DNA of 64,000 nt, taken from contig CM120645.1 of the NCBI GenBank assembly GCA_051362555.1, positions 21,080,001 to 21,144,000 of the forward strand, given 5' to 3'. The stretch is from Lingula anatina (taxonomy: Eukaryota; Animalia; Brachiopoda). Positions 39,301 to 42,300 of this stretch are shown here, piece after piece; the stretch's first letter is position 1, and every line of letters starts with the position of its first letter. A program made the position numbers and the translations under genes. Below the pieces are notes generated by a model that ran no database searches, was not told the DNA's origin, and saw nothing but the letters and a program-made list of their open reading frames with translations.

Positions 39301-42300
39301 GGGGCTTACAAATTTTCGATTCCTTGAGTAAAAAATATAGTCGGTCTACCACCCAAATACGATTTATTCCCTCCTTCAAAATGAGCACTACACACACGGT
39401 GATGCTTGGCGGGCTCGAACTTACTAAATTTGCCTTCATTTCCCGCTCGTCCAATATTGTCAATCCATATACCTCACTTTTTTGGGTCCTTGGGGAAAGC
39501 ATAAAATGAAAAATTTCGATCTCGCTTCGTATTGTTGAAACAAACAGGCACAAAACACATAGAACCGCCGAGAGGAATTTTATTTCTGTGTACAGAAATG
39601 GCGGCAACGCAAGATGGGTCCCACTTTACCCACAATGCACTGCGCTCAATATCGAAAACGAGACGAATAATGCAAGTCGTATATATGCCTTGCTTATCCA
39701 TCAAGCATGGCAGGCTACAAATTCTTCCTTTCACCTTTTATAAGATGGCATGTGATGAACAAATTTTTAAGTTTTGTGAAACATGCCCCAGAAAACAAAC
39801 AAAAAATTTTAAAGACTTACCTGGCCTGGAACTCCTTAGTACACAAAGAATGGCTGATATTTTCAATGGAGTCACACAAACAATGAGTGTAGTCATAAGT
39901 GGGATATATGCACCTAGAACAGGAAAATTTGATCATGGATTTCTTTTCAATGGTAATTTCTTTTGAAGGGAACATTATTCTGTTAATTTAAATCAACTGT
40001 ACTAATATTTGCATAAAAATAGAAATGAAGACTTCCATTTGCTGAATCCTGTAATACACTGTAACAGTACTGTAGTTAAGTGTTACCTTCTTATATATTT
40101 ATTTTATATTTCTGCAGTATATTCTGACATAAAGATTACAAATAATATTTACTTATCATTCATTAAATCATTAATTCATCCATCAATTATTTAAAAAAAA
40201 GTTTTTGTTATCAAGTGGATATTTGTACAAAAGTGACTGACAGACAAAGCCACACACAAGGCCTGTCTGCTAATTTCTCTTGCTGATAATTAATGTTGCA
40301 CACTTCTGACATTGTTGCCATAGTAACGAATGACAACAAAGAACTGGTGTGCCAGTAATTGCCTTTGTTGTTAATTGAACCTATTATCAAATAAGAGTTT
40401 AAAAAAGAAAAAAAAAAACCCAGGGCTTCAAAAGGATAAACTTGCATAGTACTTTTTGAGGGGAAATGCTAAATTTCTTGAAATTGTCCACTGGGGGAAA
40501 ATGGATAAAATTTTCAAATCATCTCTTTGCCTGTAAAGTTAACAATATTCTCATTCCTTAATATATATTGTGTAAATAATGTAGTCTAGTGAGCCTGCAA
40601 ATGTATTTAGTGCTCAATAAACTTATTATTATTAATGCATGGAGTGTATTTGTAATGGGGAAAGAAGATATGAGAGAGAGAGAGAGAGAGAGAGAGAGAG
40701 AGAGAGAGAGAGAGAGAGAGAGAGAGAGAGAGAGAGAGAGAGAGAGAGAGAGAGAGAGAGAGAGAGAGATTGATTCATATCATCTTCTCCATGATGGTTT
40801 CAACCAATATCCCTCTCTCCACCTTTAAATGAACACAGAGAAAGAGGAACCAGGCAAATGAAGGAGAGAGAGCCTGAGAGAATCTTACCATTCATCCCCC
40901 GTCCTGTGATGAGGAGCAAATTTAATCCTGTAAGCCACGGGGTCCATCTTTCCATCCTCCAGGGTGGTCTTCATCCTAAGGGTGGCCTTCCCCTCATCTA
41001 TCTTCCCCTTCTTCATGTCCTGAAATACAGGGTTCAGAAAAAATACTTATACTTTATGGAAATAAAACTGGCCTGGTTGTGACATTTTTTCATAGCTTTC
41101 ACAATTTTTAGTCTGGGAGATCCGTTTTAACAGCTATTATTTTATATACTTGATAGGTAAATTTTGTTGAATAAGATTTTTTCTGTTCTTATTATGTCAG
41201 GATTCTATCAATGAGTTTTTTCAGTGCTTACTTAATTTTGAGTCAATTAACCAAAATAATCTTTTCCTCTACAAAAATTTTCAATACAAAATAAATAGCT
41301 TGAGCAAGAGAACATTTTAATGCAACTTTGCATTTCTTAAGTAACCTACAAAGGAATACTTAAAACAAACCTACACAAACTGTGCTTTTCAGACATTTTT
41401 TTGTCAATTTGTACAAAAGGGATTCTCAGACACAGCTACAAGTCAACTGATCTGCTATCATTTCCTTTTGCAGAAATTACTGTTGCACACATTTGAGAGT
41501 GTTGCCATAGTAATACATAACAACAACCCACTGTGTGTGCCATCAAGATATAACAAATTCACAAGTCTCAATGACATGGCCCCTATTTTTGAATGTTGGC
41601 CATTTTCCAATGAGAGAATTCTGATTACCACCTCTGCACTCTTTTACATTTCTTTTAACATATTTTCAAACTTAAGTTATTTCCATTAATGTCTATCCAT
41701 TTTAATCCTGTTTTTCTTAAATGACATCTCCATAAAGTATTAAGCATTGTAAATACAAATGATAGAAAATGTCAAAATAAAAGTCTGGCAATAGAAGCAG
41801 GCGTAAGAGTTCACAAAAATATAAGAAATCTTTTAAGGCCAGAAAAATTTGGGAAAATGTGTTCATTGCAGCTTAACAAACCTCAAAGAGTATCAGAGAC
41901 TCCTCAATGGGCCTGTCTCTCCATGGCGACGGTGGAGGGTTGATTCCTTTTATCTCCTCCACGGTTTGGTGGCAAACGTAAGCATGTCCGCGCTTTATCA
42001 GTTCCACGGCCCACTCGTACAGTTGCTGGAAGTTGTCTGATGCATGGGTCACTTTGTAAGGAGAGTATCCTGAAAATAAAGGGGAAAAACATTGATTTAA
42101 TTTATGGTTTGGTTTTCTAGAACTTGACATTCAATATATGTGATACTCCCAAATTTTGTGACATGAAAATAAAGAAAAACTAGAGGATCAGAGAGGCGAT
42201 ACCGCCTCCGAATATTGTACCACCAGCTGGAGCAAGTGCATTCGTATAGACCCCCACATACACAAAAGAAGGGACACAGCCACCAGTCTTATGCTTGACA

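What the first reader, a model, noticed from the sequence alone, without database searches (positions are those of the whole stretch)
40221..41540. Two snoRNA families share one scaffold but have fully rewritten guide pockets: apparent retargeting after duplication
Seen: family A (4 copies) and family B (2 copies) share the lower stem GCACAC/GTGTGC, the upper stem TGTTGT(T/C)AT..CTATGGCAACA, the 3' stem GCAA(A/G)AG/CTTTTGT-ACA and CAGA..TCTG. They differ mainly in the internal-loop strands: A = CAGTGGG/TCTC and AATGATAG/AGAATCC; B = CAGTTCT/TGTCAG and AAATTAG/TCAGTCA. Within a family the pocket cores are invariant while apical loops drift (B2 has a GT-repeat expansion). Inference: one ancestral H/ACA gene was copied between introns and both pockets then acquired new specificities, giving four guide functions from one scaffold. 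Family A copies stay nearly identical, which suggests recent spread or gene conversion. This would be an unusually clear snapshot of guide-RNA neofunctionalisation.
Basis: partly seen in the sequence, partly recalled or inferred. Interest (0 to 1): 0.75.

Follow-up and report, generated by a model that had tools for sequence, protein, structure and literature searches.

The report
Duplicated snoRNAs retargeted to new sites
Six related small-RNA genes sit in introns of a brachiopod's glutaminyl-tRNA synthetase gene; two likely keep one target of human SNORA19, and the two types together are predicted to aim at four different ribosomal RNA sites, a clean new example of an already known way in which guide RNAs evolve.

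Summary
Real, but a known process. Six box H/ACA-type snoRNA genes lie one per intron in the QARS gene; one exon is 100% identical to Lingula anatina GlnRS. Families A (4 copies) and B (2 copies) are 66-72% identical, far above chance. B is SNORA19-like (39.9 and 37.9 bits, below Rfam's cut-off of 80) and has SNORA19's 3' pocket for 28S Psi3618. A scores 23.7 bits and carries a 2-nt insertion there, so A is the derived type. Each pocket's best site in proxy rRNA is a different 28S uridine: human U3585 and Psi3618 (B), U3810 and U4430 (A). The three new sites are unmodified in human and Xenopus. Retargeting of duplicated H/ACA RNAs is published (SNORA2/34, SNORA16-like, SNORA58-like). Lingula's own rRNA, snoRNA expression and the modifications are untested.

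The parts
40221..40354 (-). B1, SNORA19-like H/ACA snoRNA gene in QARS intron 12; H box ACATTA 40296-40291, ACA 40226-40224
   Evidence: SNORA19 39.9 bits, model 1-131, cut-off 80
40306..40346 (-). B1 5' pocket: CAGTTCT (40346-40340) and GTCAG (40310-40306); predicted target 28S U3585 (human numbering), 14 nt from the H box
40235..40275 (-). B1 3' pocket: AATTA (40275-40271) and CAGTC (40239-40235); same letters and 13-nt spacing as the SNORA19 consensus; predicted target 28S Psi3618
41407..41542 (-). A4, derived H/ACA snoRNA gene in QARS intron 11; H box ACAGTA 41483-41478, ACA 41412-41410
41495..41534 (-). A4 5' pocket: ACAGTGGG (41534-41527) and TCTC (41498-41495); predicted target 28S U3810, 15 nt from the H box
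41421..41462 (-). A4 3' pocket: AATGATAG (41462-41455) and AGAATC (41426-41421, one mismatch, one G-U); predicted target 28S U4430, 14 nt from ACA
49047..49187 (-). B2, second SNORA19-like copy in QARS intron 4; pockets identical to B1; GU-repeat loop
   Evidence: (37.9 bits)
36893..37028 (-). A3, QARS intron 14
36340..36475 (-). A2, QARS intron 15
33522..33657 (-). A1, QARS intron 20; best Rfam match SNORA19 at 23.7 bits with a 2-nt insertion in the 3' pocket
33222..52905 (-). Host gene QARS (glutaminyl-tRNA synthetase), 21 coding exons located (the last exon or exons beyond 33222 not mapped)
   Evidence: translations; exon 35299-35457 100% identical to Lingula anatina GlnRS; stranded RNA reads on exon bins

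Best explanation
Six related H/ACA-type snoRNA genes lie one per intron in the Lingula QARS gene and likely descend from one SNORA19-like gene, whose copy A is inferred to have been retargeted so that it would guide pseudouridylation of 28S U3810 and U4430, while B is predicted to guide U3585 and the conserved Psi3618. Shown: position, orientation, boxes, stems, A-B homology, pocket sequences, complementarity to conserved eukaryotic 28S. Inferred: release from spliced introns, loading with dyskerin and partners, modification of these uridines. Inferred history: a B-like gene was copied between introns; with B still covering Psi3618, one copy gained 3 extra letters (a 2-nt GA insertion against the SNORA19 consensus) plus 4 substitutions in the 3' pocket, and the two types came to differ by 5 substitutions and a 1-nt indel in the guide part of the 5' pocket. 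A then multiplied. The four A copies are likely old copies held alike by gene conversion and purifying selection.
For: Boxes and stems: 98.9% of 186 stem cells pair; fold z -1.9 to -4.5. SNORA19 is the best H/ACA match of 4227 Rfam families for B1 (E 1.2e-5 in a 181-nt search), B2 and A1 (E 0.045). B keeps AAUUA/CAGUC and the 13-nt spacing to ACA, while A reads AAU-ga-UAG and GAAUC. SNORA19 is listed for 28S U3618 and U3709. Best site of each pocket among LSU, 5.8S and most of SSU of locus L019: 8+4 bp (A 5'; 14 of 400 shuffled pockets as good), 8+5 of 6 bp (A 3'; 23 of 400), 8+5 bp (B 5'; 1 of 400), 5+5 bp (B 3'; 98 of 400). Combined p 0.001, A alone 0.016. The same contexts stand in human and Xenopus 28S, with an exact match to the B 5' pocket in Xenopus. 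B pockets invariant while the rest drifts (p 0.004); A-B changes enriched in pockets (p 0.002-0.037). A flanks at chance: 4-13 of 30 identical in register; local scores 13-25 against a random maximum of 29. A contig from another study bridges B1 and A4.
Against: Lingula's own rRNA was not obtained, so pairing rests on proxies. L019 was fetched with a pattern made from B's pockets, so B's sites are there by construction. The B 5' site was missed by my first scan (184 of 300 shuffles as good) and found only after I allowed two unpaired or stem letters at the pocket top. A 3' (p about 0.06) and B 3' (p about 0.25) are not significant alone. Exact A sites were in 8 of 15 and 5 of 12 loci with enough downstream sequence. 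snRNAs and the first 403 model positions of SSU were not scanned. No covariation beyond shuffles (149-175 of 500). All copies are below the SNORA19 cut-off. Good pairing often gives no modification on endogenous rRNA (PMC8522698). A's invariance covers loops too, so it does not show selection on A's pockets.
Confidence: 0.72

Rival explanations
1. A is a stable H/ACA RNA whose pockets drifted or aim elsewhere (snRNA, unscanned 18S, or a chaperone role), and its 28S matches are fortuitous or unused.
For: A 3' match alone p about 0.06 with a mismatch at the fourth position of one arm; U3810 and U4430 are unmodified in human and Xenopus; predicted pockets that do not act on endogenous rRNA are documented; A's uniformity can come from conversion alone.
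Against: Both A pockets have a best site with correct U-N geometry and 14-15 nt spacing in invariant 28S core, joint p 0.016; four copies are retained while their flanks have lost homology.
Confidence: 0.14
2. The A copies arose recently by RNA-mediated copying of the mature snoRNA into neighbouring introns (this concerns the copying route only and is compatible with retargeting).
For: Identity of 96-99% confined to the RNA body; the 5 differences form an additive path in genomic order A1-A2-A3-A4.
Against: The 3 letters after ACA and 2 letters before the first stem, normally part of the mature RNA (recalled), differ among copies; no poly(A) tails are seen in the flanks printed; intron flanks already differ by about 9% plus indels between individuals (30 letters in 347, 25 in 263), so lost flank homology needs no RNA step.
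Confidence: 0.15
3. A and B are older than the lineage, or B's SNORA19-like 3' hairpin came by hairpin shuffling, so that the direction B-to-A is wrong for at least one pocket.
For: B's 5' pocket does not match SNORA19's Psi3709 target either; independent evolution and shuffling of hairpins is proposed in PMC6984369; no outgroup was available.
Against: A and B share both hairpin scaffolds, and both align to SNORA19 over model positions 1-131; A's 3' pocket is the consensus plus an insertion.
Confidence: 0.1
4. The near-identical A copies are an assembly artefact.
For: 96-99% identity among copies.
Against: Contigs of public runs join unique flanks to A copies (36444-36925 spans A2 to A3 with 0 differences; a 2227-nt contig of another study spans B1 to A4); each copy sits in a different intron of an intact gene.
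Confidence: 0.02

Closest known systems
SNORA19 / ACA19 (Rfam RF00413)
   Same: Full-length alignment; GCACA...UGUGC lower stem; in B the 3' pocket AAUUA/CAGUC, 13 nt from ACA, for 28S Psi3618.
   Different: 39.9, 37.9 and 23.7 bits against a cut-off of 80; the 5' pocket no longer fits Psi3709; host is QARS, whereas the chicken ACA19 counterparts are in EIF3S10; A has lost the Psi3618 pocket.
Retargeted vertebrate paralogues: SNORA2/SNORA34, SNORA10/SNORA64, Xenopus pug18S-137 (from SNORA16) and pug18S-324 (from SNORA58) (PMC6984369)
   Same: Extra copy in the same host gene, conserved scaffold, pocket changes giving a new target.
   Different: Here both pockets differ at 66-72% overall identity (SNORA34 versus SNORA2 is 46-55%); the derived type has four copies; invertebrate lineage; nothing tested experimentally.
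Cis-duplication of intronic snoRNAs in chicken (PMC2653536)
   Same: Paralogues in neighbouring introns, guide elements conserved within a family, occasional substitutions or indels giving new guide functions.
   Different: In that study about 90% of H/ACA genes are singletons; six related copies in one host gene is a larger set.

Membership tests
Box H/ACA snoRNA | Hairpin-hinge-hairpin-tail fold with an internal loop in each hairpin | tested here: met
   98.9% of stem cells paired; no covariation beyond shuffles
Box H/ACA snoRNA | H box ANANNA in the hinge and ACA after the second hairpin | tested here: met
   ACAGTA (A), ACATTA and ACATAA (B); ACA in 6 of 6
Box H/ACA snoRNA | Bipartite complementarity around an unpaired U-N, about 14-16 nt from the box (range recalled) | tested here: met
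   15, 14 and 14 nt; 13 nt for B 3', as in the SNORA19 consensus; proxy rRNA only
Box H/ACA snoRNA | Intronic and sense to the host gene, clear of the 3' splice site | tested here: met
   6 of 6, about 160-390 nt upstream of the acceptor
Box H/ACA snoRNA | Accumulates as a discrete RNA ending 3 nt after ACA, binds dyskerin, directs pseudouridylation | not testable with these tools
   only poly(A) or unspecified long-insert RNA libraries were laid
SNORA19 (RF00413) | Reaches the Rfam gathering score (80 bits) | tested here: not met
   39.9, 37.9, 23.7 bits; filed as SNORA19-like, not as a member
SNORA19 (RF00413) | 3' pocket for 28S Psi3618 | tested here: met
   met in B1 and B2, not in A
SNORA19 (RF00413) | 5' pocket for 28S Psi3709 | tested here: not met
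   best sites are U3585 (B) and U3810 (A); consensus pocket letters absent
H/ACA scaRNA | CAB box (UGAG, recalled) in apical loops | tested here: not met
   absent by inspection of the loops

The most novel reading that the evidence does not exclude
Retargeting here is local: three of the four predicted sites (U3585, Psi3618, U3810) cluster at one helix junction of 28S domain IV, U3810 pairing with a base that lies between B's two targets. New pockets would then arise where a guide RNP is already docked by its ancestral pocket, giving brachiopods three pseudouridines unknown in vertebrates, with gene conversion spreading the new guide through the host gene.
Probability: 0.12. Interest if true: 0.62.

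Novelty: new member of a known kind. Interest (0 to 1): 0.36.

Why it matters
It is a tractable case of guide-RNA neofunctionalisation with an identifiable ancestor, a short list of mutations and three predicted rRNA modifications that human and frog lack, in a phylum for which I found no snoRNA study. Human and Xenopus 28S carry the same unmodified target sequences, so the guides can be tested in standard cells. It extends an invertebrate-poor catalogue but does not change the known model.

Tried and rejected
Rfam at gathering threshold: 0 hits in 64 kb. No whole genome is held, so no genome-wide copy search and no orthologues; contig depth over the A core is about 4-7 times that of single flank contigs, compatible with about four loci but not a copy number. 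No RNA holder was listed; three long-RNA libraries showed no read ends at the snoRNAs, which says nothing on expression. Lingula's own rRNA was not obtained. My first pocket scan (offsets 0-1) missed the B 5' site. Covariation among six copies is no better than shuffles. Allele comparison across four runs listed 40 of 128 difference rows; none of the 40 lay in a B1 pocket and one (41464) was the known A4 paralogue difference at the pocket's outer edge, but 88 were hidden, so it is inconclusive. miRNA, C/D and other H/ACA matches were weaker or shape-only. No further copy in the window. Literature: no Lingula snoRNA study among 10 listed of 11 papers (listings only); searches for Drosophila or plant counterparts, cross-species pseudouridine maps, snoRNA gene conversion and nematode guides gave nothing usable, so whether U3585, U3810 or U4430 are modified in other invertebrates, plants or protists is open. 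Four papers asked for by recalled id were not held. Earlier scan findings: none.

Full report
What is there. Six related elements of 134-141 nt lie on the minus strand: A1 33522-33657, A2 36340-36475, A3 36893-37028, A4 41407-41542, B1 40221-40354, B2 49047-49187. The finding's coordinates cover B1 and A4 only. Each sits alone in an intron (20, 15, 14, 11, 12 and 4 by my exon count), sense to a glutaminyl-tRNA synthetase gene whose exons translate cleanly, about 160-390 nt upstream of the acceptor (with A4's acceptor taken). One 53-residue exon is 100% identical to the GlnRS labelled Lingula anatina (domains). Stranded RNA reads cover the exon bins in the gene's sense. Each copy has two hairpins, an ANANNA box and a terminal ACA; 98.9% of 186 stem cells pair, with no covariation beyond shuffles. 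A model from the six finds no further copy in the window.

Homology and where the changes fall. A copies are 96-99% identical, B1 and B2 84%, A versus B 66-72%. Local alignment scores of 110 and 68 exceed all 1000 shuffles (maximum 33). Between B1 and B2, 0 of 31 pocket columns differ against 22 of 106 elsewhere (p 0.004). Between A4 and B1, 17 of 35 pocket columns differ against 20 of 98 (p 0.002); A4-B2 gives p 0.037, and without gaps the three p values are 0.015-0.037. This is the pattern expected from selection within B and redirected pockets between families. The pockets are about half rewritten, not fully. In A the loops do not drift at all, so A's constancy is no evidence for selection on its pockets.

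Ancestry. Rfam gives nothing at gathering level. Below it, SNORA19 is the best H/ACA match for B1 (39.9 bits, E 1.2e-5 in a 181-nt search), B2 (37.9 bits) and A1 (23.7 bits, E 0.045), each over the whole model. B's 3' hairpin has the consensus pocket AAUUA / CAGUC and the same 13 letters to ACA. A has a GA insertion in the left strand and GAAUC on the right. SNORA19 is listed as guide for 28S U3618 and U3709 (PMC6984369 supplementary table row); the chicken table puts the U3618 equivalent on a 3' pocket and the U3709 equivalent on a 5' pocket, 91 nt apart (PMC2653536 passage). So one of the 'four new functions' is an old one and A is the derived type, at least for the 3' pocket. B's 5' pocket does not fit U3709; when it changed cannot be dated without outgroups.

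Targets. A pattern made from both B pockets returned 42 metagenome loci. All 42 read like eukaryotic LSU rRNA around the match; one, L019, was confirmed by Rfam as complete LSU, 5.8S and SSU positions 404-1831. Scanning L019, each pocket's best site is a different LSU uridine: A 5' GAGA[U]UCCCACUGU (4+8 bp, 15 nt from the H box, 14 of 400 shuffled pockets as good); A 3' GGCUCU[U]CCUAUCAUU (5 of 6 + 8 bp, 14 nt, 23 of 400); B 5' CUGAC[U]UAGAACUGG (5+8 bp, 14 nt, 1 of 400); B 3' GACUG[U]NUAAUU (5+5 bp, 13 nt, 98 of 400). Combined p is 0.001, and 0.016 for A alone. Caveats: B's sites are in L019 by construction; the first scan, with tighter offsets, missed the B 5' site; the exact A sites were in 8 of 15 and 5 of 12 loci with enough downstream sequence, several misses being truncated or degenerate rDNA. 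The published human-Xenopus alignment numbers these sites U3585, Psi3618, U3810 and U4430. Only 3618 is marked modified in either species; Xenopus has a pseudouridine one base before the 4430 equivalent and matches B's 5' pocket exactly. Lingula's own rRNA, its snRNAs and the start of 18S were not examined.

How the copies stay alike. Identity among A copies starts at GCACAC and ends at ACA. Flanks match at 4-13 of 30 in register, and their local scores (13-25) fall within the random range (95th percentile 19, maximum 29). Intron flanks differ by about 9% plus indels between individuals, more than A paralogues differ from each other. The five A differences form an additive path in genomic order. 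I infer old neighbour-to-neighbour copies homogenised by conversion and selection; recent RNA-mediated copying is less likely but not excluded. Contigs from public runs join the copies to their unique flanks, which argues against an assembly artefact.

Mechanism. Inferred from established H/ACA biology (recalled): after QARS splicing each intron is trimmed to the RNA protected by dyskerin, NOP10, NHP2 and GAR1, and each pocket clamps pre-28S so that the unpaired U is isomerised. With B covering Psi3618 in two copies, a spare copy was free to change; a handful of substitutions and small indels per pocket suffice, helped in the 5' pocket by both targets having ACUG in the same register. None of these steps was observed. 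Well-paired pockets can be inactive on endogenous rRNA (PMC8522698 passages).

Comparison with what is known. PMC6984369 (abstract, passages, section 10, supplement part 3 and table rows seen) describes SNORA2/34, SNORA10/64 and Xenopus SNORA16-like and SNORA58-like guides arising from extra copies in the same host by point mutation, and finds only 39% of H/ACA RNAs functionally conserved between frog and human. PMC2653536 (passages and section 13) names intragenic duplication and divergence as the main source of new chicken snoRNAs. The process is therefore known; this is a new instance. I found no Lingula snoRNA study in one search (listings only). The paper library lacks most subscription journals, and bioRxiv supplements were not seen, so pseudouridine maps of other invertebrates may already list the three sites.

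Most novel reading. In the Rfam LSU structure line the A 5' target (model U2333) pairs with A2132, in a strand lying between B's targets (model 2108 and 2141). Three of four predicted sites are thus at one junction, which may mean that new pockets arise beside an existing docking site. This was noticed after the fact, and modifications cluster in this domain anyway; I give it 0.12.

Verdict. Observation largely real; interpretation partly supported; new member of a known kind; interest 0.36.

Noticed in passing
window 42176-45621: High-copy insertion in QARS intron 10 with an internal array of 146-bp tandem repeats; contig depth thousands of times that of the flanks, loose ends at both borders, and abundant one-strand RNA reads, probably from other copies. 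Likely a non-autonomous transposon with a satellite core.
   Followed up: no
window about 50640-51330: High-copy element with long inverted arms in QARS intron 1, transcribed on both strands in read lays; MITE-like.
   Followed up: no
window 39315-39560, minus strand: Broken THAP-domain reading frame with one internal stop in QARS intron 13 (PF05485, E 1.5e-4, 22.9 bits, just under the cut-off), inside a repeated region of about 37700-39700; likely a DNA-transposon remnant.
   Followed up: partly
window 40250-40297 (B1) and 49047-49187 (B2): In some other individuals both contigs covering B1 carry B2's letter at 40263 or 40297, or a 2-nt longer GU loop; either conversion between B1 and B2 or retained ancestral states.
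   Followed up: partly
B2 lower stem, about 49135: B2 has lost the top pair of the 5' lower stem, which would free the C that gives the eighth pair with the predicted U3585 site.
   Followed up: no
window 52153-52234 and 38680-38760: Near-perfect hairpins in QARS introns giving shape-only miRNA matches far below cut-off; likely short inverted repeats.
   Followed up: no
L002, L008, L022, L031, L042: AT-rich, degenerate LSU rDNA copies with many changes in otherwise invariant core; look like rDNA pseudogenes.
   Followed up: no
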